A stretch of 58,224 nucleotides of DNA, taken from the NCBI GenBank assembly GCA_039738635.1, contig JBCLLN010000005.1, positions 1 to 58,224 of the forward strand, written 5' to 3'. Every line of letters begins with the position of its first letter. Within the stretch, counting starts at the first letter, position 1. The notes below the pieces were generated by a model, which was not told the DNA's origin, did no database searches, and saw nothing but the letters and a program-made list of their open reading frames with translations. This document shows, piece by piece, positions 1 through 57,171 of this stretch. The position numbers and the translations under genes were made by a program. Origin of the DNA: Candidatus Saccharimonadia bacterium. GTDB taxonomy: Bacteria > Patescibacteriota > Saccharimonadia > CAILAD01 > BJGX01.

Positions 1-366
1 GGAGATGACATTACTTCATTGCAAAACTTTGTCCAGTCATCACTGACGGCATACACAATGTACTTTAATAAAAAGTACAAAAGGGTAGGTCCATTATTCC
101 AAGGTGTGTTTAAAGCCTCAAAAATATCAAGCGACGCATATTTAATCCATATCAGCAGGTATATTCATCTTAATCCCAGACGGTATAAGGCATATTACTA
201 TTCAAGCTTGCAATATTATGTATCAAAAGAATCGCCAGCTTGGCTAAAGCCTCAAAAGATAATATCATTGTTTACATCTCCCAAAGAATACATGAAGTTT
301 ATTGAAAAGTATGACGATACGACAATAACTCATGACGACTTCGAACCAGAACTTGCGAACAAATAA
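1..366 (+). CDS. Y1 tyrosine transposase (IS200/RAYT-like), copy A, 5' end cut by window edge
   Basis: nt 1-366 align gap-free with 1925-2290 (offset 1924). The translated tail differs from copy B at 3 residues, with the same TAA stop. Confidence 0.8.
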   Translation, partial: GDDITSLQNFVQSSLTAYTMYFNKKYKRVGPLFQGVFKASKISSDAYLIHISRYIHLNPRRYKAYYYSSLQYYVSKESPAWLKPQKIISLFTSPKEYMKFIEKYDDTTITHDDFEPELANK

Positions 367-4722: not shown

Positions 4723-4797
4723 AACCAGAACTTGCGAACAGATAACATTTCATATGACACGAATCATCAGATGTAAAGGTGAGACCTTATATTCCTT
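4723..4797 (+). mobile_element. solo right-end remnant of the Y1-transposase element
   Basis: Matches the last ~24 nt of the transposase CDS plus the REP-like end (compare 343-415 and 2267-2338). No ORF is attached. Confidence 0.8.
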
Positions 4798-5811: not shown

Positions 5812-6105
5812 TAAGGAATTGGTCCAGCCGAGCTGGACTTGGCTGAAAATAACCAGAAGCTAAAAGTATATTTGATTTTTCTGATTGCTTAGATAGTCGT
5901 AGGGCTACACTTAATATCCCACCCCGACATCGAACATCAGAAAATGAGTAGATGTTTTAAGCTCATTACTTAAGAAGCTGTATGAGCTTGATGCGATAGT
6001 AATAAAGCGAGTTCTTCATAAATAAGGAAGTAAAATATCTATGAATGCTTATAGATGTGAGCCTTAGGAGGGCAGTTTTATATTACTTTTGCTGTCAAAA
6101 GTAAT
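5812..6105. repeat. conserved ~300-nt ORF-free element, copy 1 (candidate structured RNA or non-autonomous mobile element)
   Basis: Aligns with 15622-15931. Perfectly conserved blocks of 39, 29, 33, 25 and 36 nt are separated by variable blocks. No ORF is conserved between copies. Confidence 0.7.
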
Positions 6106-6136
6106 AGCTAAATAATAAAATAATAATTATATTTTA

Positions 6137-9400: not shown

Positions 9401-9445
9401 TGTATCTGCGGATATTTCTCCCTAAAGATAAAACAGTTTTCACTC

Positions 9446-9486
9446 GGCCAGATTCACCCTAGGAATGGGCGATTTTAAAGTAAGCC
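9446..9486. repeat. short MITE/REP-like element upstream of paralog 1
   Basis: ggccagattcaccctaggaatgggcgattttaaagtaagcc resembles 11608-11654 and, inverted, 17555-17587 and the end of the 48590 MITE. Confidence 0.6.
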
Positions 9487-9564
9487 ATAGTATAATAACG
9501 ATATATCAAGCATAATAACTATTATTAAAGACTGTAATATACTAACAAACCAAGGTTAGAACAA

Positions 9565-11583
9565 ATGCCAGAGCAGATTCCAGATCAAAACCCACAAGGC
9601 CCCTCCAGTCCTAGTTCTAGCCCTAGCCCTAGCAAAGAGGAGCTGGCTGGTGCTAGATTATTGCATACTAAATACTCAGATCTTCAAAAATCTCCTGTCG
9701 TAGAACACTCCGTCGAACAGCGGCGACACAATAAAGAAAGAATACCCAATGAACCTGCTCCAAGGATTGAAGCCTGGCTGCAAGACTTGGATCGTATCCA
9801 CACCGGCCGTGGAGCCAGCCCTGAACGCCAAGCTGCTCAGCCCGAAGTACTGGAACGCATCAAAGAAAGTTACCATCGCAACTACATCACAGGCACCGAT
9901 AACGATTCGGTGATGCGCAAACTCCGCCACGATGCCCAAATAGCCCAAAACCAAGGTCACGGTCTGGCCGCAGATATTATGCAACGCGTCAATGGCCAAG
10001 TTATTGAACAAACCCGCCAAACAATACACCAAGACCAAGCCAACAGCCTCGACAAATGGTTAGATTATCTCTCCAGCGACGATGCCAGCTATCCCATGTG
10101 GTTTAAATACTATGTATTTCGTAATATCACTAAGCTGGCTGAATTTGATAAAGAAAAAGGCGAATTCCCCAGACGATCTAAAAGCACCACGGCCCCATTC
10201 CCGGACATCAATCGTGAAGCCTTGGCATATATGGAAGACAGCCTAGCCAAACACTATGGCTTACAGCAGCTTGACCCCAACCACCCCGAAGCCGCAATAG
10301 ATCCAGCAATCAAAGAACTATTAGATAAAGACTCTAACTTTGCTAGCCTCTACAAGCGCACTATAGCTTATGCCGCCCCTAAAACTGCCGAAAACCTAGC
10401 TGTCACCGACGGACAATGGGTTAAATTCGACCAAACCAATGATACCGAGCAAGCAATGAAGCTCGCCCATAGCCTGCATGGCTATGGCACCGGCTGGTGT
10501 ACAGCTGGCGAGGGCATGGCCGCCAGTCAGCTAGCTGCCGGAGACTTCTACGTCTATTACACTAAAAGTGAAGACGGGCAGTACAGTGTACCGAGGGTGG
10601 CGATACGAATGAACGGTAGAAGTATTGGTGAAGTAAGGGGCATTGAAGCTGACCAAAACATGGAAGGCCCGCTCCTACCAATTGCGGAGGCCAAGATGAA
10701 CGAGGTAGACCCCCAGGGCGCCGAGGCTTACAAGAAGAAGTCGGCCGACATGCAAAAGCTGACAGCTATCTATACCCGCCACACTACTAGCGCAGAACTT
10801 ACTAATCAAGATCTCCGATTCCTCTACGAACTAGATGGCAGAATAGAAGGCTTTGGCTACGAGCGAGACCCTAGAATAGAGCAGATCCTTGCTGATAGAA
10901 ATGATAAGGCTGATTTATCTCTGGCGCTGGGCATAGATGAAGCTAAAATAAGTATAACCATAGCAGAGGCCTTAAGTGGTGACATACTCTACCATTATGG
11001 TGACCTCGACCTCCACATCCTCACCAGCGCCCATGGCCCAACCCTCTCCACCATCGGTGGCGACCTCACCCTCCCCAGCCTCACCAGCGCCGAGGGCCTA
11101 ATAACCCTACCCACCACCATCGGTGGCTCCCTCAGCCTCAATAACCTCACCAGCGCCCATGGCCTAACCCTCCCCACCACCATCGGTGGCGACCTCAACC
11201 TCAGCAGCCTCACCAGCGCCAAGGACCTAATCCTCCCCACCACCATCGGTGGCTACCTCGACCTCAATAGCCTCACCAGCGCCAAGGACCTAATCCTCCC
11301 CACCACCATCGGTGGCGGCCTCGGCCTCAGTAGCCTCCCCAGCGCCAAGGACCTAATCCTCCCCACCACCATCAGTGGCGACCTCAACCTCGATAGCCTC
11401 CCCAGCGCCAAGGACCTAATCCTCCCCACCACCATCGGTGGCGGCCTCGTCCTCCACAGCCTCACCAGCGCCAAGGACCTCACCCTACCCACCACCATCG
11501 GTGGCTACCTCGACCTCGGTAGCCTCCCCAGCGCCGAAAGAGATGCCCTCTGCGCTAAATACCCTGATATATATATCATCTAG
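9565..11583 (+). CDS. large repeat protein, paralog 1: conserved N/central domain + nine 20-aa LRR-like repeats
   Basis: 672 aa, collinear with 17705-19654. Central motif HGYGTGWCTAGEGMAASQL..GDFYVYY..PRVAIRM.GRSIGEVRGIEADQN; C-terminal LTSA(K/E)(D/G)L(I/T)LPTTIGG.L.L repeats. No signal peptide seen. Confidence 0.85.
   Translation: MPEQIPDQNPQGPSSPSSSPSPSKEELAGARLLHTKYSDLQKSPVVEHSVEQRRHNKERIPNEPAPRIEAWLQDLDRIHTGRGASPERQAAQPEVLERIKESYHRNYITGTDNDSVMRKLRHDAQIAQNQGHGLAADIMQRVNGQVIEQTRQTIHQDQANSLDKWLDYLSSDDASYPMWFKYYVFRNITKLAEFDKEKGEFPRRSKSTTAPFPDINREALAYMEDSLAKHYGLQQLDPNHPEAAIDPAIKELLDKDSNFASLYKRTIAYAAPKTAENLAVTDGQWVKFDQTNDTEQAMKLAHSLHGYGTGWCTAGEGMAASQLAAGDFYVYYTKSEDGQYSVPRVAIRMNGRSIGEVRGIEADQNMEGPLLPIAEAKMNEVDPQGAEAYKKKSADMQKLTAIYTRHTTSAELTNQDLRFLYELDGRIEGFGYERDPRIEQILADRNDKADLSLALGIDEAKISITIAEALSGDILYHYGDLDLHILTSAHGPTLSTIGGDLTLPSLTSAEGLITLPTTIGGSLSLNNLTSAHGLTLPTTIGGDLNLSSLTSAKDLILPTTIGGYLDLNSLTSAKDLILPTTIGGGLGLSSLPSAKDLILPTTISGDLNLDSLPSAKDLILPTTIGGGLVLHSLTSAKDLTLPTTIGGYLDLGSLPSAERDALCAKYPDIYII
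10999..11538 (+). repeat. 9 x 60-bp in-frame tandem repeat array (C-rich strand)
   Basis: Period 60 nt, visible as repeated ctcaccagcgccaaggacctaatcctccccaccaccatcggtgg units. Confidence 0.9.
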
Positions 11584-11607: not shown

Positions 11608-11654
11608 TTACTGGATTTACCCTAGGAATGAGTGATTTTGCATAAGTCCAGTTA
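11608..11654. repeat. short MITE/REP-like hairpin element downstream of paralog 1
   Basis: ttactggattta...taagtccagtta arms are complementary at 10/12 positions. The core matches the TIR region of the 48590 MITE. Confidence 0.6.
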
Positions 11655-11702
11655 GGTCCAATTAAGTTGCAGGATTCTTTGATTTACTAGATACTAATAA
11701 GT

Positions 11703-15621: not shown

Positions 15622-15931
15622 TAAGGAATCGGTCCAGCCGAGCTGGACTTGGCTGAAAATAACCAGAAGTTAAGAACCTATTTGATCTTTAAAGATTGTT
15701 TAGATAGTCGGAGAGCTTCAATCACAGCTTGGGCCCTAGAAAATATCCCCCCGACATCGAACATCAGAAAATGAGTAGCTGCTTTAAGCTCCTTATTATG
15801 AAGTTGTCTAAAGCTTGATGCGATAGCAATAAAGCGAGTTCTTCATAAATAAGGAAGTAATACAGCTATGAATGCTTATAGATGTGAGCCAAGTCGGGCA
15901 GTTTTATATTACTTTTGCTGTCAAAAGTAAT
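15622..15931. repeat. conserved ~300-nt ORF-free element, copy 2
   Basis: Aligns with 5812-6105. Carries a ~15-nt larger variable block containing extra palindromes (agct, gggccc) and ends in the same acttttgctgtcaaaagt hairpin. Confidence 0.7.
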
Positions 15932-16150
15932 TAAATAATAATAAATAAATTAATTAACTCAGTGTTACTTTTAAATAATTTTAATTGTTTTATTACATTT
16001 GGCATCAAAAGTGGATATTAAACATAATAATTATATTATTTAGCTATTGCATATAAAACATAAGAATTTTGTCACAATAATATATGCAGGCTCGTTACAA
16101 AGGGTGTATAATGAAGATACACCGCTTTTATTGAAAGGAGGTGAAAGGAT

Positions 16151-17369: not shown

Positions 17370-17543
17370 ATGGCAAAGAATACCAAGAGACAAATTACAA
17401 TCATCAAAAATAAAGCCACTGGAAGCAGATATTTTACTTCCAAGAATACTTTAAATACTCCAGACAAAATAGAATTTAAGAAGTTTGACCCTAAGACCCG
17501 CAAGGTTGAAACCTTTGTGGAAGTTAAGTCTAAACTTAGCTAA
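17370..17543 (+). CDS. rpmG: 50S ribosomal protein L33 (Cys-less form), missed by the ORF track
   Basis: MAKNTKRQITIIKNKATGSRYFTSKNTLNTPDKIEFKKFDPKTRKVETFVEVKSKLS has the L33 pattern without CxxC pairs. Confidence 0.8.
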   Translation: MAKNTKRQITIIKNKATGSRYFTSKNTLNTPDKIEFKKFDPKTRKVETFVEVKSKLS

Positions 17544-17612
17544 GTCCAGTTAGGGCTTACTTTAAAATTGCTCATTGCTATAAGGGGCAAAAGAGCTTTA
17601 ATGTAAGTCCGG
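17541..17612. repeat. MITE/REP-like elements upstream of paralog 2
   Basis: taagtccagtta, then ggcttactttaaaattgctcattgctataagggg (inverted relative to 9446-9486), then gtaagtccgg. Confidence 0.6.
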
Positions 17613-17704
17613 TATAATAACGGCGCATATAGTATAATAACAATACATATAAGCATAATAATGATTGTTAAAGACTGTAATATAGCTAACCAAGGTTAAA
17701 ACAA

Positions 17705-19654
17705 ATGCCAGAGCAGTTTCCAGACCAAAACCCCCAAGGCCCCTCCAGTCCTAGTTCTAACAAAGAGGAGCTGGCTGGTGCTAGATTACTGCATTCTAAA
17801 TACTCAGATCTTCAAAAATCTCCTGTCGTAGAACGCTCAGTCGAACAGCGACGACACAATAAAGAAAGTATACCCAACGAGCCATCCCCCAGAATTGAAG
17901 CCTGGCTGCAAGACCTAGAGCGTACCCACACCGGCCTTGGAGCCAGCCCCGAACGCCAAGAGGCTCAGCCCCAAGTGCTAGAACGCATCAAGGAAAGTTA
18001 CCATCGCACCTACATCACCGGCACCGATGATGGTTCGGTGGGGCGCAAACTCCACCATGAGGCCCAAATAGCCCAAAATCAAGGTCACGGTCTGGCCGAA
18101 GATATTATGCAACGCGTTAATCATGAAGTTATTGAACAAACCCGCCAAACCATTCGCCAAGACCAAGAACAAAGCCTTGATAGGTGGATAGATTATCTCA
18201 CTAGCGACGATGCCAGCTATCCTATGTGGTTTAAGTACTATCTATTTCGTAACATCACTAAGCTGGCCCAGTTCGACAAAGAAGCAGGTGAATTCCCCAA
18301 ACGATCCAAAAGCACCACGGCACCATTCCCAGACATTAATCGTGAAGCCCTAGCATATATGGAAGACAGCCTAGCCAAACACTATGGCTTAAAGCAGCTT
18401 GACCCCCACCACCCCGAAGCTGAAATAGATCCAGCAATGAAAGAACTATTGGATAAAGACTCTAACTTTGCTAGCCTTTATAAACGCACCATAGATTATG
18501 CCGCCCCTAAAACTGCTGAAAACCTAGCTGTGACAGACGGAGAGTGGGTTAAATTCGACCAAACTGATGATCCCGAGCAAGCCAAAGAGCTGGCCCATAG
18601 TCTGCACGGTTATGGAACCGGCTGGTGCACAGCTGGGGAGGGCATGGCAGCCAGTCAGTTATCGGCTGGAGACTTCTATGTCTATTATAGTAAAAGTGAA
18701 GATGGGAAGTACACCGTACCTAGGGTGGCGATACGAATGAAAGGCAGAAGCATTGGTGAAGTAAGGGGCATTGAAGCTGACCAAAACATGGAAGGCCCAC
18801 TGGTACCGATTGCTGAGGCCAAGATGAACGAGGTAGACCCCCAGGGTGCCGAGCCTTACAAGAAGAAGTCGGCCGACATGCAAAAGCTGACAGCTATCTA
18901 TACCCGCCACACTACTAGTGTAGAACTTACCAATCAAGATCTGAGATTCCTCTACGAACTAGACGGTACAATACAGGGCTTTGGATATCAGCGAGACCCT
19001 AGAATAGAGCAGATCCTTGCTGATAGAAATAAGAAAGCTGATTTATCTCTGGTGCTGGGCATAGATGAAGCTAAAATAAGTATAACCGCAGCAGAGGCCT
19101 TAAGTGGTGACATACTCTACCATCATGGCAACCTCAGACTCTACGGCCTCACTAGCACCGAGGGCCTAACTCTCCCCACCACTATCGGTGGCGACCTCAC
19201 CCTCCCCAGCCTCACCAGCGCCGAGGGCCTAACCCTACCTAACTCCATCGGTGGTGGCCTCGACCTCAGGAGCCTCACCAGCGCCGAGGGCCTAACCCTA
19301 CCTACTGCCATTGGTGGCTCCCTCAGCCTCAATAACCTCACCAGCGCCGAGGGCCTAACTCCCCCCACCACCATCAATGGCTACCTCTGGCTCAGCAGTC
19401 TCACCAACGCCGAGGGCCTAACTCTCCCCACCACCATCGGTGACTACCTCGTCCTCAGTAGCCTCACCAGCGCCGAGGGCCTAACCCTACCTAACTCCAT
19501 CGGTGGTGGCCTCTTCCTCGACGGCCTCATCAGCGCCGAGGGCCTAACTCTCCCCACCACCATTGGTGGTGACCTCGGCCTCGGCAGCCTCACTAGCGTC
19601 GACAAACAAGCCCTCAGAGACAAATACCCACAGTTAGCTAGTAAAATAATTTAA
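17705..19654 (+). CDS. large repeat protein, paralog 2
   Basis: 649 aa, collinear with paralog 1 including the GYGTGWCTAGEG core. Eight LTSAEGLTLPTTIGG.L.L repeats. Confidence 0.85.
   Translation: MPEQFPDQNPQGPSSPSSNKEELAGARLLHSKYSDLQKSPVVERSVEQRRHNKESIPNEPSPRIEAWLQDLERTHTGLGASPERQEAQPQVLERIKESYHRTYITGTDDGSVGRKLHHEAQIAQNQGHGLAEDIMQRVNHEVIEQTRQTIRQDQEQSLDRWIDYLTSDDASYPMWFKYYLFRNITKLAQFDKEAGEFPKRSKSTTAPFPDINREALAYMEDSLAKHYGLKQLDPHHPEAEIDPAMKELLDKDSNFASLYKRTIDYAAPKTAENLAVTDGEWVKFDQTDDPEQAKELAHSLHGYGTGWCTAGEGMAASQLSAGDFYVYYSKSEDGKYTVPRVAIRMKGRSIGEVRGIEADQNMEGPLVPIAEAKMNEVDPQGAEPYKKKSADMQKLTAIYTRHTTSVELTNQDLRFLYELDGTIQGFGYQRDPRIEQILADRNKKADLSLVLGIDEAKISITAAEALSGDILYHHGNLRLYGLTSTEGLTLPTTIGGDLTLPSLTSAEGLTLPNSIGGGLDLRSLTSAEGLTLPTAIGGSLSLNNLTSAEGLTPPTTINGYLWLSSLTNAEGLTLPTTIGDYLVLSSLTSAEGLTLPNSIGGGLFLDGLISAEGLTLPTTIGGDLGLGSLTSVDKQALRDKYPQLASKII
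19127..19603 (+). repeat. ~8 x 60-bp in-frame tandem repeat array
   Basis: Repeated ctcaccagcgccgagggcctaac(c/t)ct(a/c)cc...atcggtgg units. Confidence 0.9.
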
Positions 19655-19821: not shown

Positions 19822-19929
19822 TTATTTCTTGTGTTTTTCATAGTTAGCGATAAATTCCTGGTAAGCTTCTCTGCTGGAATAGTTGATCAAGTAGTTTTTC
19901 TGTCTGAAGCCACTCCGGCTCGCTGGCAT
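19822..19929 (-). pseudogene. possible C-terminal remnant of a diverged Y1/RAYT transposase
   Basis: The 35-aa ORF ..FRQKNYLINYSSREAYQEFIANYEK parallels ..LKPQKIISLFTSPKEYMKFIEEYDD of the 1670 protein. An in-frame stop lies upstream. Confidence 0.3.
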
Positions 19930-46405: not shown

Positions 46406-46846
<441 letters not shown>

Positions 46847-48517: not shown

Positions 48518-48589
48518 CATGCTCTATGGGTAAAACACATGACGATTTCTGGGTACATCAGCAAATTTGCATTTTACTAACCTAGTAAA

Positions 48590-48747
48590 CTGGACTTACG
48601 CAAAATCTCACCTTCCTGTACCAAATCTGAATGGCTGCAAACATCCATCTTTCTATCGGCGTAGCTATGGTTACTCCTCTAGAAATCTGAGAAGTTTTCG
48701 CTCGTTCAGATTTACCACAGAAAAAGCGTTATTTTGCGTAAGTCCAG
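48590..48747. mobile_element. 158-bp MITE with perfect 17-bp terminal inverted repeats and TAAA target-site duplication
   Basis: ctggacttacgcaaaat (48590-48606) and attttgcgtaagtccag (48731-48747), flanked by taaa on both sides. An uninterrupted paralogous site is at 49868-49880. Confidence 0.8.
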
Positions 48748-48802: not shown

Positions 48803-49138
48803 CTATGCAGGTTTTTTCTCTAGCCGACCAATTCGTAGCTCATGGTCTTTTAGTTGGGTATCGTTAGTCTCGTTGCTAGTATCCATTGCACCAGCTACAT
48901 ATTTTGATAGGTCATCTATTTTCGTACTCATCTTATTATCTAAGCTCTTGATGTCAGAACGAACATCAGAGATTTCAACACGAACATCAGAGATTTCAAC
49001 ACGAATACCAGAGATATCATCACGCATACCAGAGATATCGTGATGAATACCAGAGATATCATCACGAATTTCAGTGGTTTGTTGTGAAACTGTTGCGGAG
49101 ATAAATTGTTTTAAGTCTTGGATGGTGTCGTCATTCAT
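48803..49138 (-). CDS. 111-aa coiled-coil protein with 7-aa tandem repeats (DISG(I/M)R/H.)
   Basis: IRDDISGIHHDISGMRDDISGIRVEISDVRVEISDVRSDIKS. Start set at MNDDTIQ, 6 nt after TGtTATAAT. Confidence 0.55.
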   Translation of the reverse strand: MNDDTIQDLKQFISATVSQQTTEIRDDISGIHHDISGMRDDISGIRVEISDVRVEISDVRSDIKSLDNKMSTKIDDLSKYVAGAMDTSNETNDTQLKDHELRIGRLEKKPA

Positions 49139-51350: not shown

Positions 51351-51435
51351 GGGCGGGTGGTGGAACTGGTATACACGACGGACTTAAAATCCGTTGCCTT
51401 TCGGCTTGCGGGTTCAAGTCCCGCCCCGCCCACCA
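51351..51435 (+). tRNA. tRNA-Leu(UAA), long variable arm
   Basis: Acceptor gggcggg/cccgccc, anticodon loop ctTAAaa, T-arm gcggg ttcaagt cccgc, CCA. Confidence 0.85.
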
Positions 51436-51460
51436 AACAAATAGTCCTGCTAAGGCAGGG

Positions 51461-51601
51461 CAGATTATAAATCCAACGCATGATACACTAAAGAAAATAA
51501 CGAAAGCCCTTGGGGTTGGTTTAGATGAATTAACCGGCTATCAATTTCAGCTAAAATTTCAATACCTGTCTGCAGGCAGGCAGGAAAGTTTAACTAATTA
51601 A
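51461..51601 (+). pseudogene. 5'-truncated XRE-family HTH gene fragment
   Basis: The frame reads ..INPTHDTLKKITKALGVGLDELTGYQF.., the third helix and tail of an XRE HTH. There is no start codon, and the frame runs into the tRNA-Leu terminator. Confidence 0.5.
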
Positions 51602-55642: not shown

Positions 55643-55686
55643 TATTTTACGAGCACCTTACGGAAAAGGCGTCAGCCGTTATCCCG
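55643..55686 (+). repeat. isolated copy of the distal 44 nt of the tRNA-Val-associated 166-bp unit
   Basis: tattttacgagcaccttacggaaaaggcgtcagccgttatccc matches 46593-46635 and 46759-46801 with one mismatch. Confidence 0.85.
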
Positions 55687-55818: not shown

Positions 55819-57171
55819 ATGGATAATATTCAACAACCGATACAACCTCAACAAAATAACAATCTACCACCAATAACTCCCATTACGCCTGAACCTCATA
55901 AATCCAAGCTTTGGATTTATGTACTTGCTGGAATTTTGATTGTCGGGGTGGTTGTAGTGGCAGGAGCATTTTTTTTCAAAGGAAGATTACCACAAACGGA
56001 ATTGACACCACCACCAAAGTTAGATGACACCGGTTCAACGAAACAGGGCATACAAGCTGTCGCTAATGCAAATAACAAATTTGCTTTCAATTTATATTCC
56101 CAACTAAATAAATCTGAAAAAGGAAATGTTTTTTATTCTCCATATAGTATTTCTGCCGCTTTAGCAATGACATATGAGGGTGCAAAAGAACAAACAGCAG
56201 ACGAAATGAAGTCCGTTTTTCATTTTCCAGAAAGCAATATTTTAAGACCAAATTTTGCCGCAATCTATAATGACATCAATAAAGGTGCTAAAGATTATGA
56301 ATTGAGAACGGGAAATGCTTTGTGGGTTCAACAGGACTCTCCTCTTCTTGCGGATTATACGGGCAGGGTTGAAAAGTATTATGGCGGGAAGGCGACTAAT
56401 CTAGATTTCGTCAAAGAAAGTGAAAAATCAAGACAAACAATAAATAGTTTTATAGAAGAACAGACAAATAATAAAATTAAAGATTTAATTCCTACTGGCT
56501 CTCTTGGCGAGATGACGCGACTTGTTTTGACTAATGCAATATATTTTAAGGGAACTTGGCAGTGGGAATTTGATACATCTGACACTCGCGAAGAAGATTT
56601 CAAGATAACTCCCACCAACATAGTAAAAACTCCGATGATGAACATGAATTCTGGAAATGATAGGTTGAATTATGTTGACACAGAAGATGCACAAATTTTA
56701 GAATTACCATACAAGGGCGATAAAATCTCAATGCTGGTATTACTGCCAACCAAAGACCTTGCTTCAATCGAATCCACTTTGACAGCAGAAAAACTTATTG
56801 AGTATAGATCTAAAATGAAAGAAACGCAGTTGGATTCAATATCGTTTCCTAAATTTGAATTTGATACCAAATATTTCATGAATGATACTTTGAAGGCGTT
56901 AGGCATGCCGACAGCTTTTTCGGGAAACACTGACTTTTCTGGAATGACTGGCAAAAAAGATTTGTTCATTAGCTCTGTCATTCATCAGGCATATGTCAAA
57001 GTTGATGAGAAAGGAACAGAGGCGGCCGCCGCAACTGCCGTGATTATTGGCCTTACATCTGTCGAGCCGAGAAATGATTTCAGAGCAGACCGCCCATTTA
57101 TATTCATAATTCAGGAGAAAGACACCGGAAACATTCTATTTTTAGGTAGAGTAGTCAATCCTGCAAGTTAA
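55819..57171 (+). CDS. serpin-family protease inhibitor with N-terminal TM anchor
   Basis: NAIYFKGTWQ, inhibitory-type hinge EKGTEAAAATAV, FRADRPFIFII. Confidence 0.9.
   Translation: MDNIQQPIQPQQNNNLPPITPITPEPHKSKLWIYVLAGILIVGVVVVAGAFFFKGRLPQTELTPPPKLDDTGSTKQGIQAVANANNKFAFNLYSQLNKSEKGNVFYSPYSISAALAMTYEGAKEQTADEMKSVFHFPESNILRPNFAAIYNDINKGAKDYELRTGNALWVQQDSPLLADYTGRVEKYYGGKATNLDFVKESEKSRQTINSFIEEQTNNKIKDLIPTGSLGEMTRLVLTNAIYFKGTWQWEFDTSDTREEDFKITPTNIVKTPMMNMNSGNDRLNYVDTEDAQILELPYKGDKISMLVLLPTKDLASIESTLTAEKLIEYRSKMKETQLDSISFPKFEFDTKYFMNDTLKALGMPTAFSGNTDFSGMTGKKDLFISSVIHQAYVKVDEKGTEAAAATAVIIGLTSVEPRNDFRADRPFIFIIQEKDTGNILFLGRVVNPAS

What the first reader, a model, noticed from the sequence alone, without database searches (positions are those of the whole stretch)
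9401..11583. Paralogous ~650-aa proteins: conserved GYGTGWCTAGEG-core domain fused to variable 20-aa repeat solenoids, with a conserved promoter/leader
9565-11583 and 17705-19654 are collinear paralogs. The N-terminus is low-complexity and Pro/Ser-rich, with no signal peptide or TM segment. A ~470-aa conserved region contains HGYGTGWCTAGEGMAASQL..GDFYVYY..PRVAIRM.GRSIGEVRGIEADQN. Its layout (a Cys-containing motif, a beta-hairpin, then ..RG...N) reminds me of PcfJ-like domains, but that is recollection only. The C-terminus holds 8-9 LRR-like repeats, LTSA(E/K)(G/D)L(T/I)LPTTIGG.L.L, which differ systematically between paralogs (AKDLIL against AEGLTL). About 90 nt upstream of each ATG is conserved (tagtataataac...aagcataataa...ttaaagactgtaatata...ccaaggtta.aacaaATG). 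Both genes are flanked by MITE/REP-like elements, and paralog 2 is followed by a possible RAYT remnant. This is a lineage-specific, duplicating, repeat-variable family of unknown function, plausibly involved in host or surface interaction.
Basis: partly seen in the sequence, partly recalled or inferred. Interest (0 to 1): 0.7.

Follow-up and report, generated by a model that had tools for sequence, protein, structure and literature searches.

The report
Repeat-variable relatives of DGR target proteins
Two duplicated genes belong to a very large, unnamed protein family of ultra-small symbiotic bacteria that joins one conserved core to a fast-changing binding module (21-residue repeats here, a retroelement-mutated domain in relatives), so they most likely recognise changing partners on other cells or viruses.

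Summary
ORFs 9565-11583 (672 aa) and 17705-19654 (649 aa) are collinear paralogues, 82% identical. The core is under purifying selection (dN/dS 0.16) and the repeats are not (0.91).

Corrections:
- The repeat is 21 aa (63 nt), with 8.5 and 7.3 copies.
- The "RAYT remnant" is unsupported.
- The "MITE" is a ~35-nt element with four copies.
- The family is not lineage-specific: at least 2,436 clusters at 50% identity, across Patescibacteria, gut Bacilli, Bdellovibrionota and one Nanoarchaeota MAG.

No Pfam, NCBIfam or PDB match exists. The Cys-containing alpha/beta domain resembles phage PcfJ-like models by fold (Foldseek E 5e-4). It resembles PcfJ only marginally by profile (P 0.005-0.02).

The same core is fused in relatives to a C-terminal domain rewritten by a diversity-generating retroelement. 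That cassette has a TR, an Avd and an RT, and the VR/TR mismatches fall almost only at TR adenines. One relative carries C-terminal TPR repeats.

Repeat positions 2, 4, 6 and 7 are hypervariable. Copy number steps by 21 aa among near-identical strains.

Best reading: a constant module coupled to a diversifying recognition module. It is the repeat-based counterpart of CPR DGR variable proteins. The ligand, location and core activity are unknown.

The parts
9480..9564 (+). Upstream segment of paralogue 1 conserved with paralogue 2. Contains TATAAT at 9491-9496 and AAGG at 9552-9555. Probably the promoter and 5' UTR carried along in the duplication.
   Evidence: Alignment; 69 of 85 positions identical; sequence read. 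No canonical -35/-10 pair found by the scan.
9565..11583 (+). Paralogue 1 CDS, 672 aa (P0001).
   Evidence: AF2 mean pLDDT 87.6 and pTM 0.76.
9634..10374 (+). Helical N-terminal part of the conserved core (aa 24-270). Invariant residues include W165, Y168, W179, R204, T208, F259.
10411..10659 (+). Small alpha/beta domain (aa 283-365), topology beta-alpha-alpha-beta-beta-beta. Carries invariant W311-C312, D327-F328, P343-R344, R358-G359 and Q364. PcfJ-like by fold.
   Evidence: (domain model pLDDT 88.5). dN/dS 0.08. No significant PDB match.
10666..10974 (+). Helical C-terminal part of the core (aa 368-470). Contains the GFGY..DPRI motif (aa 429-438; G431, D435, R437 and I438 invariant across 120 sequences, the rest nearly so).
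10999..11529 (+). Array of eight 21-aa units plus a partial unit, consensus GxLxLxxLTSA(E/K)(G/D)LxLPTTIG. Predicted beta-solenoid with variable positions 2, 4, 6 and 7.
   Evidence: dN/dS 0.91 against paralogue 2.
11530..11580 (+). C-terminal capping helix and tail (..ERDALCAKYPDIYII). This tail, '..LR.KYP.L..', recurs in most repeat-type members inspected.
17623..17704 (+). Upstream segment of paralogue 2 homologous to 9480-9564. TATAAT at 17633-17638.
17705..19654 (+). Paralogue 2 CDS, 649 aa (P0003).
18539..18787 (+). Cys-containing alpha/beta domain of paralogue 2 (aa 279-361).
19127..19603 (+). Array of seven 21-aa units plus a partial unit in paralogue 2.
9455..9489 (+). Copy of a ~35-nt dispersed element (CCCTAGGAATGrGyGATTTT...TAAGyCC).
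11618..11656 (+). Second copy of the short element, just downstream of paralogue 1.
17541..17585 (-). Inverted copy of the short element, between rpmG and paralogue 2. Its hairpin may also terminate rpmG.
48588..48617 (-). Fourth copy of the short element, not next to either paralogue.
   Evidence: pair I7.

Best explanation
Both genes encode members of a very large, unnamed family built on one plan. A constant N-terminal module of about 450 aa is joined to an exchangeable C-terminal recognition module.

The constant module has three parts: a helical domain, a small Cys-containing alpha/beta domain with a PcfJ-like fold, and a helical GFGY-DPRI region.

In this window the recognition module is a beta-solenoid of 21-residue LRR/FNIP-like repeats. 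The residues flanking the conserved leucines (positions 2, 4, 6 and 7 of GxLxLxxL) and the number of units change quickly.

In relatives with the same core, the recognition module is a C-terminal domain rewritten by a diversity-generating retroelement. One relative also carries C-terminal TPR repeats.

The most likely function is therefore a variable-specificity binding protein. The solenoid recognises a changing ligand on a host or prey cell, or on a virus. The constant module supplies a fixed activity or attachment.

Shown:
- paralogy and selection pattern;
- family size and distribution;
- repeat hypervariability and copy-number variation;
- DGR cassettes next to homologues;
- absence of any DGR in the window.

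Inferred:
- the solenoid binds a ligand;
- diversification here works by unequal recombination and gene conversion among the 63-bp units and between the paralogues;
- the cellular location;
- any catalytic role for Cys312.
For: - Selection. The core is under purifying selection (dN/dS 0.16; alpha/beta domain 0.08) and the repeats are not (0.91).
- Positional variability. In 2,049 repeat units from 176 proteins, within-protein entropy peaks at positions 2, 4, 6 and 7 (1.5-2.2 bits), which are rich in D, S, Y, N, W and R. At L3, L5, L8, L14 and P17 it is 0.1-0.2 bits.
- Strain-level divergence. Among same-length proteins of one lineage the cores are 96.6% identical but the arrays only 86.6%. Differences fall at the same four positions.
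- Copy number. Lengths in that lineage run from 713 to 882 aa in steps of 21 aa, apart from a few 1-2-aa deviations.
- DGR relatives. Fourteen of about 80 genome loci, all with non-repeat C-termini, carry a TR 450-500 nt downstream, an inverted Avd-like ORF and a DGR-type RT. None of 32 repeat-type loci does.
- Adenine signature. VR/TR mismatches fall at TR adenines in 25/25, 21/22, 25/27, 18/21 and 21/28 cases.
- Independent annotation. Pfam calls bAvd and RVT_1 in locus L093.
- Further module. One member carries C-terminal TPR repeats.
- Module exchange. A rough NJ tree of the core needs at least 5 switches between repeat and non-repeat C-termini.
- Solenoid fold. The AF2 solenoid is confident and resembles FNIP-repeat proteins, E 4.4e-3.
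- Export. About 5% of members, mostly repeat-type, have Sec or lipoprotein signal peptides placed before the conserved start.
- Literature. CPR DGR targets lack recognisable domains, and a few show a PcfJ-like motif upstream of the VR (PMC5758913; PMC8144416).
Against: - No ligand, location or activity is shown.
- The window's proteins, like the CPR members inspected here, lack a signal peptide or TM segment. A surface role would need an unknown export route.
- dN/dS near 1 in the repeats fits relaxed constraint plus concerted evolution as well as positive selection. Repeat alignment between the paralogues is also ambiguous.
- Strain-level variation was demonstrated in a different lineage (gut MAGs), not in the window's organism.
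- There is no conserved gene neighbourhood apart from the DGR cassettes.
- The core has no significant match in the PDB. Its sequence link to PcfJ is marginal.
Confidence: 0.55

Rival explanations
1. Cytoplasmic invader sensor. The variable C-terminal module (LRR-like, DGR-diversified or TPR) recognises phage or other foreign proteins inside the cell. The constant PcfJ-like module then acts as the effector. This would be a switch-less analogue of NLR/Avs-type conflict systems.
For: - The window's proteins, and the CPR members inspected, have no export signal.
- The set of C-terminal modules (LRR-like, DGR-mutated domain, TPR) resembles the sensor modules I recall being described for NTPase conflict systems. 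Those papers (PMC7159879, PMC10907252) were listed but only their abstracts were seen.
- CPR DGR targets are noted as possibly 'genuine non-membrane-bound' (PMC8144416).
- The core has many invariant charged residues.
Against: - No NTPase or other switch domain is present.
- There is no PADLOC hit, apart from one weak match in one member.
- There is no defence-island context; the neighbours are housekeeping genes.
- Homologues in apparent diderm lineages are exported.
- No effector activity is known for PcfJ.
Confidence: 0.2
2. A domesticated phage or plasmid PcfJ-type protein that acts in mobile-element biology, for example as an anti-defence or entry factor. The repeats would be an accessory.
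For: - Fold similarity to phage PcfJ-like models.
- pCF10 pcfJ lies next to an AcrIIA9-family gene and about 3.5 kb from an ArdC-like gene.
- Both paralogues are compositionally atypical: GC3 0.58 and 0.53 against 0.37-0.43 in neighbours.
- One homologue with a DGR lies between two serine recombinase genes on an IMG/VR contig.
Against: - PF14284 does not match.
- Only one locus was found among 2.9 million viral contigs.
- Plasmids gave no match, and cultured phages gave a single match confined to the repeats.
- The genes sit among housekeeping genes in the window and in other genomes.
- The whole 450-aa core is under strong purifying selection.
Confidence: 0.1
3. A protein with a fixed structural or enzymatic role. 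Its repeat array varies only through neutral slippage and recombination, without functional consequence.
For: - dN/dS in the repeats is about 0.9, not clearly above 1.
- Tandem 63-bp units at 78-85% identity are prone to unequal recombination.
Against: - Variation is strongly position-specific, at 2, 4, 6 and 7, with the scaffold positions nearly invariant.
- The same core is repeatedly coupled to a dedicated hypermutation system, which makes neutral variation unlikely.
Confidence: 0.1
4. A polymorphic toxin or effector with a constant delivery module and a variable toxic C-terminus.
For: The architecture has a constant N-terminus and a variable C-terminus. The gene occurs in multiple copies per genome.
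Against: - The C-terminal modules are binding-type repeats or DGR-diversified domains, not toxin domains.
- There is no conserved adjacent immunity gene.
- No toxin family matches.
Confidence: 0.03

Closest known systems
DGR variable (target) proteins of CPR/Patescibacteria and DPANN (Wu et al. 2018, PMC5758913, category g; Roux et al. 2021, PMC8144416)
   Same: - Homologues share the entire ~450-aa N-terminal core.
- The variable recognition module sits at the C-terminus.
- They have the same host range (CPR, one Nanoarchaeota MAG).
- CPR members generally lack TM segments and signal peptides.
- The literature notes a PcfJ-like motif in some CPR targets.
   Different: - The window's two proteins have no VR, TR, Avd or RT.
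- Their variable module is a 21-aa repeat solenoid, not a DGR-mutated domain.
- Diversification must therefore rely on recombination among repeats, which is inferred.
- Whether Wu et al.'s PcfJ-like targets are this same family could not be checked.
PcfJ-like proteins (Pfam PF14284; pCF10 PcfJ and Herelleviridae phage proteins)
   Same: - Fold-level similarity of the Cys-containing alpha/beta domain (Foldseek E 5e-4 to 7e-4).
- In-register Cys, Pro and xRG..N(Q/R) motifs.
- The function of PcfJ is also unknown.
   Different: - PF14284 does not score.
- The His before the Cys and the T.E motif of PcfJ are not conserved; the family has WC and PRxAIR.
- The domain is central rather than C-terminal.
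- The genes are chromosomal in CPR rather than on phages or plasmids of Firmicutes.
Leucine-rich-repeat and FNIP-repeat solenoids. Lamprey VLRs are a functional analogy drawn from my own knowledge.
   Same: - Short tandem units with a conserved hydrophobic ladder.
- Variable residues alternate on a beta-strand (xLxLxx).
- Copy number is variable.
- Foldseek matches FNIP-repeat proteins at E 4.4e-3.
- Pfam LRR_14 hits 3 of 21 members weakly.
   Different: - The 21-aa consensus GxLxLxxLTSAEGLxLPxxIG lacks the LxxLxLxxN/C signature and the Asn ladder.
- No LRR or FNIP Pfam model reached its curated cut-off on any member scanned.
- No cassette-assembly machinery is known for it.
NLR/Avs-like 'conflict system' sensors with LRR, TPR or DGR-diversified C-termini (PMC7159879, PMC10907252)
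   Same: The repertoire of C-terminal sensor modules attached to a constant N-terminal part resembles what I recall of these systems. Only the abstracts of the two papers were seen.
   Different: - No STAND or AAA NTPase is present.
- No recognisable effector domain is present.
- There is no defence-island context.

Membership tests
PcfJ-like (Pfam PF14284) | Match to the PF14284 HMM at or above its gathering score (25 bits) | tested here: not met
   PF14284 hit neither paralogue, none of 21 diverse members at E <= 1, and none of six DGR-type members at E <= 0.01. The model itself works: pCF10 PcfJ scores 148.9 bits.
PcfJ-like (Pfam PF14284) | Profile-profile similarity of the Cys-containing domain to a PcfJ-domain alignment | tested here: inconclusive
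   hhalign P 0.01, 0.005 and 0.022 with 12- and 33-sequence PcfJ profiles. The alignment is always in the same register (Cys, Pro, xRG..N). One of 200 and 3 of 150 column shuffles reach the real score.
PcfJ-like (Pfam PF14284) | Fold similarity to PcfJ-like proteins | tested here: met
   Foldseek against BFVD returned 'PcfJ-like protein' models at ranks 4, 5, 7, 16, 17 and 23. The best are E 5.2e-4 and 6.9e-4 with probability 1.00 and 0.99. These are predicted models, global rmsd is high, and no direct pairwise superposition was possible.
PcfJ-like (Pfam PF14284) | C-terminal position of the domain in phage or conjugative-plasmid proteins | tested here: not met
   The domain is central (aa 283-365 of 672). 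The genes are chromosomal among housekeeping genes. Plasmids gave no match and viral contigs gave one locus.
DGR variable (target) protein | A VR in the gene with a cognate TR differing at adenines, plus a DGR reverse transcriptase nearby | tested here: not met
   The window has no RT or Avd homologue (tblastn) and no TR-like copy of the gene's 3' end. The feature is met in homologues sharing the core: loci L048, L063, L069, L090, L092 and L093.
DGR variable (target) protein | C-type-lectin-like C-terminal domain carrying the variable residues | tested here: not met
   The window's C-termini are 21-aa repeat solenoids. The fold of the homologues' VR domain was not modelled.
Leucine-rich repeat superfamily | Tandem 20-30-aa units with the LxxLxLxxN/CxL signature, recognised by LRR models | tested here: inconclusive
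   The consensus is GxLxLxxLTSAEGLxLPxxIG, with no Asn/Cys ladder. Pfam LRR_14 hit only 3 of 21 members, best E 9.3e-4.
Leucine-rich repeat superfamily | Solenoid with one turn per unit and a parallel beta-sheet bearing the variable residues | tested here: met
   AF2 predicts two short strands per 21 aa with pLDDT about 90 across the array. Foldseek similarity to FNIP-repeat solenoids is E 4.4e-3 with TM 0.40 normalised to the target. Variable positions 2, 4 and 6 alternate with conserved L3 and L5.
REP/RAYT system | A Y1 (RAYT) transposase gene or recognisable remnant | tested here: not met
   The 35-aa ORF at 19825-19929 (minus strand) has no Pfam match at E <= 0.01.
REP/RAYT system | Many dispersed copies of a short palindromic element | tested here: inconclusive
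   A ~35-nt element has four copies in 58 kb, three of them next to the paralogues. Genome-wide copy number is unknown.
Polymorphic toxin | C-terminal toxin domain with an adjacent immunity gene | tested here: not met
   No toxin family matched. There is no recurrent small neighbour gene across about 80 loci.

The most novel reading that the evidence does not exclude
Patescibacteria, together with DPANN archaea, reduced gut Bacilli and Bdellovibrio-like predators, share a single recognition system. One conserved PcfJ-like module is coupled to interchangeable hypervariable receptors. Those receptors are diversified by two mechanistically different routes on the same scaffold: retroelement mutagenesis of a lectin-like domain, or shuffling and expansion of 21-residue LRR-like cassettes. 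This would be a prokaryotic parallel to antibody-type versus VLR-type diversification. It would also identify the long-unexplained domain-less DGR targets of CPR as one arm of a broader host, prey or virus recognition family.
Probability: 0.25. Interest if true: 0.85.

Novelty: new variant of a known kind. Interest (0 to 1): 0.62.

Why it matters
CPR and DPANN organisms are the groups richest in DGRs. The proteins those DGRs diversify have had no recognisable domains, and their role is an acknowledged open question (PMC8144416).

This work links the window's repeat proteins to those targets through a shared 450-aa core. The link defines a very large family: at least 2,436 clusters at 50% identity, with no Pfam model.

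It shows that the same constant module is served by at least two different diversification strategies. It also offers tractable handles for experiments:
- an invariant Cys-containing domain;
- a well-predicted solenoid with four defined variable positions per unit;
- exported versions, apparently in diderm lineages.

If the recognition-module reading is right, the family is a prime candidate for how episymbionts recognise hosts or viruses.

Tried and rejected
- **Family libraries.** Pfam, NCBIfam, PHROGs and PADLOC scans gave only spurious repeat-driven hits such as Glutaredoxin2_C, HNH_5 and MoeA_C.
- **PDB by sequence.** A single sequence and a profile both found nothing.
- **PDB by fold.** Foldseek with the full model and with the 107-aa domain model gave no match at E <= 0.001 and a best E of 0.19. 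GCN5-type GNAT domains recur at TM 0.35-0.40, which I do not treat as evidence.
- **Collecting PcfJ relatives.** The word-indexed search returned mostly close Enterococcus fragments. A larger PcfJ profile did not improve the hhalign score.
- **Literature on PcfJ.** No functional study was found; most hits were C. elegans pCFJ plasmids.
- **Exact-sequence contig look-ups.** P0004 and the window protein were not on record. Cluster look-ups gave no names. The window's taxon is therefore only inferred from nearest homologues (Saccharibacteria-like).
- **Fused enzymatic domains.** Ten members with unusual lengths showed only TPR.
- **Conserved neighbourhood.** None exists apart from the DGR cassettes.
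- **Rfam.** Only tRNAs in the window, and no known leader RNA upstream of the genes.
- **Rejected readings.** RAYT remnant, polymorphic toxin, and PD-(D/E)xK nuclease. The last was considered from a D...ExR pattern but has no fold support.
Full report
**1. Observation**

The two ORFs exist exactly as described: 9565-11583 (672 aa) and 17705-19654 (649 aa), both on the + strand. They are collinear paralogues, 82% identical over 637 aa. tblastn finds no third copy in the window.

Neither protein has a hydrophobic N-terminal segment or a TM segment. The maximum Kyte-Doolittle value over 19 aa is 1.28 and 1.12. AlphaFold leaves residues 1-21 disordered.

The C-terminal repeats are real tandem arrays, but the unit is 63 nt, or 21 aa, not 20. 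TRF gives 8.5 copies at 85% matches (10998-11535) and 7.3 copies at 78% matches (19146-19602). Paralogue 1 has eight full units and paralogue 2 has seven. The AKDLIL form is confined to the later units of paralogue 1.

About 85 nt upstream of each ATG are 81% identical. This segment includes a TATAAT hexamer and an AAGG about 10 nt before the start codon. The consensus promoter scan finds no -35/-10 pair there. The identity is no higher than in the duplicated coding DNA (89%). It therefore shows that the duplication carried the 5' region along, and it is not independent evidence of a regulatory leader. Rfam finds only tRNAs in the window.

The flanking "MITE/REP-like" sequence is a ~35-nt element with four copies, three of them beside the paralogues. 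The "RAYT remnant" is a 35-aa ORF with no Pfam match.

The neighbours are housekeeping genes: a P-type ATPase, ProRS, MurB, ExoIII, L33, a thioredoxin and a trypsin-like peptidase.

**2. Selection and composition**

Between the paralogues the core has dN/dS 0.16, and the small alpha/beta domain has 0.08. The repeat region has 0.91, with dN 0.21 and dS 0.23. The repeat alignment is ambiguous, and within-array homogenisation inflates dN. I therefore read this as release from the core's constraint, not as proof of positive selection.

Both genes are compositionally unusual. GC3 is 0.58 and 0.53, against 0.37-0.43 in neighbouring genes.

**3. The family**

The family is not lineage-specific.
- The word-indexed search returned 2,389 hits among its 8,000 candidates.
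- An exhaustive HMMER search with a core-only profile found 2,436 clusters at 50% identity (E <= 1e-3). Of these, 1,366 have E <= 1e-30.
- A scan of GTDB species representatives confirmed at least 560 loci. They lie in many Patescibacteria classes, gut "Bacilli/Tenericutes" MAGs, Bdellovibrionales, one Nanoarchaeota MAG and other MAGs with less certain labels.
- Several genomes carry two copies.

Nothing is annotated for this family. Pfam, NCBIfam, PHROGs and PADLOC gave no genuine match for the paralogues or for 21 diverse members. PDB sequence searches with a single sequence and with a profile were empty.

Invariant residues across 120 sequences include W165, Y168, W179, R204, T208, W311, C312, D327, F328, P343, R344, R358, G359, Q364, G431, D435, R437, I438 and R445.

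**4. Structure**

AF2 with a 120-sequence alignment gives a confident model, with pLDDT 87.6 and pTM 0.76. Its parts are:
- a helical region (aa 24-270);
- a beta-alpha-alpha-beta-beta-beta domain (aa 283-365) that carries the Cys;
- more helices (aa 368-470);
- a solenoid with two short strands per 21 aa (aa 479-655);
- a capping helix.

Foldseek against the PDB found nothing, best E 1.4. A separate model of the 107-aa domain (pLDDT 88.5) also found nothing significant, best E 0.19. GCN5-type GNAT domains recur at TM 0.35-0.40, which is below any threshold I would trust.

Against predicted viral structures the full model hit several groups:
- an uncharacterised 1,494-aa phage protein, E 7.6e-9;
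- repeat fragments, one 44% identical with TM 0.77;
- several "PcfJ-like protein" models, E 5.2e-4 and 6.9e-4 at probability at least 0.99, with further ones at ranks 7, 16, 17 and 23;
- FNIP-repeat proteins of giant viruses, E 4.4e-3, matching the solenoid.

**5. The PcfJ question**

PF14284 scores pCF10 PcfJ at 148.9 bits but does not score this family.

I built PcfJ-domain alignments from pCF10 and ten phages and later added 21 metagenomic fragments. hhalign always aligns the same elements:
- WC with HC;
- the glycine before the first long strand;
- the Pro;
- (I/V)x(E/Q)xRG..N.

The statistics are marginal. P is 0.01, 0.005 and 0.022, and 1 of 200 and 3 of 150 column shuffles reach the real score.

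I conclude that the domain is plausibly a distant PcfJ-like fold, at roughly even odds or slightly better. It is not a member of PF14284 as defined. PcfJ itself has no known function.

**6. The decisive context**

Many homologues lack the repeats. They end instead in a ~230-aa domain with a "...W...EFVFRLRK" terminus, or in other tails.

Clustering the neighbours of about 80 loci showed no conserved neighbourhood, with one exception. In 14 loci, all with non-repeat C-termini, the gene is followed by a reverse transcriptase with DGR hallmarks (LPLGNLTSQ, YADD). In eight of these there is also an inverted four-helix-bundle (Avd-like) ORF.

The last 133-151 nt of the family gene are repeated 450-500 nt downstream at 80-85% identity. 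The mismatches fall almost only at adenines of the downstream copy: 25/25, 21/22, 25/27, 18/21 and 21/28. That is the signature of DGR mutagenic retrohoming.

On one IMG/VR contig, Pfam independently calls bAvd and RVT_1 next to the family gene.

None of 32 repeat-type loci has an RT. The window has no RT or Avd.

One member carries C-terminal TPR repeats. A rough NJ tree of the core needs at least five switches between repeat and non-repeat C-termini.

The literature is consistent with this picture. CPR DGR targets mostly lack recognisable domains, a few show a "PcfJ-like" motif upstream of the VR, and their lack of TM domains is flagged as an open question (PMC5758913; PMC8144416). I could not verify that those PcfJ-like targets are this same family.

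**7. The repeats behave as a recognition surface**

In 2,049 units from 176 proteins, the unit count ranges from 1 to 21. Within-protein entropy peaks at positions 2, 4, 6 and 7 of GxLxLxxLTSAEGLxLPxxIG (1.5-2.2 bits), which are enriched in D, S, Y, N, W and R. The scaffold positions are nearly invariant.

Positions 15, 18 and 19 differ between proteins but are more uniform within a protein than across the family. That pattern points to concerted evolution.

In one gut lineage with cores 95-99% identical, lengths run 713, 734, 755 ... 882 aa, in steps of 21 aa apart from a few 1-2-aa deviations. Same-length pairs are 96.6% identical in the core but 86.6% in the array. The differences again fall at positions 2, 4, 6 and 7.

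About 5% of members, mostly repeat-type, carry Sec or lipoprotein signal peptides placed before the conserved start. The two that can be placed come from Bdellovibrionales and Pseudobdellovibrionaceae MAGs. None of the CPR members inspected does.

**8. Interpretation**

The best-supported reading is a two-part protein: a constant module of unknown activity and an exchangeable, rapidly diversifying recognition module.

The window's paralogues are the repeat-based version. Diversification would come from unequal recombination and conversion among the 63-bp units, and possibly between the two genes. This mechanism is inferred, not shown.

Whether the ligand lies on a host or prey surface, or is a foreign protein inside the cell, is unresolved. 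Signal peptides in the apparently diderm homologues favour the first. Their absence in the CPR members inspected favours the second.

Mobile-element, neutral-repeat and toxin readings are less likely, for the reasons given under the rival explanations.

**9. Novelty and verdict**

The kinds of thing involved are known: DGR variable proteins, LRR-like variable repeats and PcfJ-like domains. I did not find the following described:
- that one ~450-aa core unites a very large unannotated family;
- that the domain-less CPR DGR targets and these repeat proteins are the same family with alternative variable modules.

I rate this as a new variant of a known kind, of moderately high interest. The main caveats are that function, location and the PcfJ homology remain unproven.

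Noticed in passing
window 55819-57171 (+): A full-length serpin gene (Pfam Serpin, E 1.6e-120) in what looks like a Patescibacteria-type genome.
   Followed up: no
window 1-300 and 1925-2224; also 344-418, 2268-2342, 4723-4797, and inverted at 1615-1654: A 100%-identical direct repeat of at least 300 nt at the window start. A 75-nt element is also present in three direct copies and one inverted partial copy.
   Followed up: no
window 5812-6124 and 15622-15950: An intergenic segment of about 310 nt is repeated about 9.8 kb apart at 88-95% identity. It is a larger dispersed repeat than the one beside the paralogues.
   Followed up: no
window 46466-46846; partial copies at 51419-51467 and 55643-55685: A 166-nt unit occurs in three near-identical tandem copies (the last only partly confirmed). 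The array begins inside the 3' end of a tRNA gene (46406-46479). One partial copy lies next to another tRNA. This could be an integration-site duplication.
   Followed up: no
window 48950-49075: A tandem array of 21-nt units, which would encode 7-aa repeats if coding.
   Followed up: no
window 9565-11583 and 17705-19654: Both paralogues are compositionally atypical. GC is 0.53 and 0.52 and GC3 is 0.58 and 0.53. The window GC is 0.42 and neighbouring genes have GC3 0.37-0.43. GC skew is strongly negative. This is compatible with horizontal acquisition or with biased gene conversion.
   Followed up: partly
window 17370-17543 (+): A 57-aa rpmG (ribosomal protein L33) gene lies immediately upstream of paralogue 2. 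Its stop codon is followed by the hairpin of the short repeated element.
   Followed up: partly
L093 3169-4581 and 12000-13613 (IMG/VR contig): A family gene with its DGR cassette (bAvd, RVT_1) lies between two large serine recombinase genes. The whole unit may therefore be mobile.
   Followed up: partly
L090, L092, L063, L069, L048 (downstream of the family gene): The DGR cassettes next to homologues have the Avd-like gene inverted relative to the target and the RT. Wu et al. describe a B3 subtype, differing in avd/TR order and orientation, as typical of CPR; this may be the same arrangement.
   Followed up: partly
P0244 (937 aa, metagenomic homologue): One member combines the core and 21-aa repeats with C-terminal TPR repeats.
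   Followed up: no
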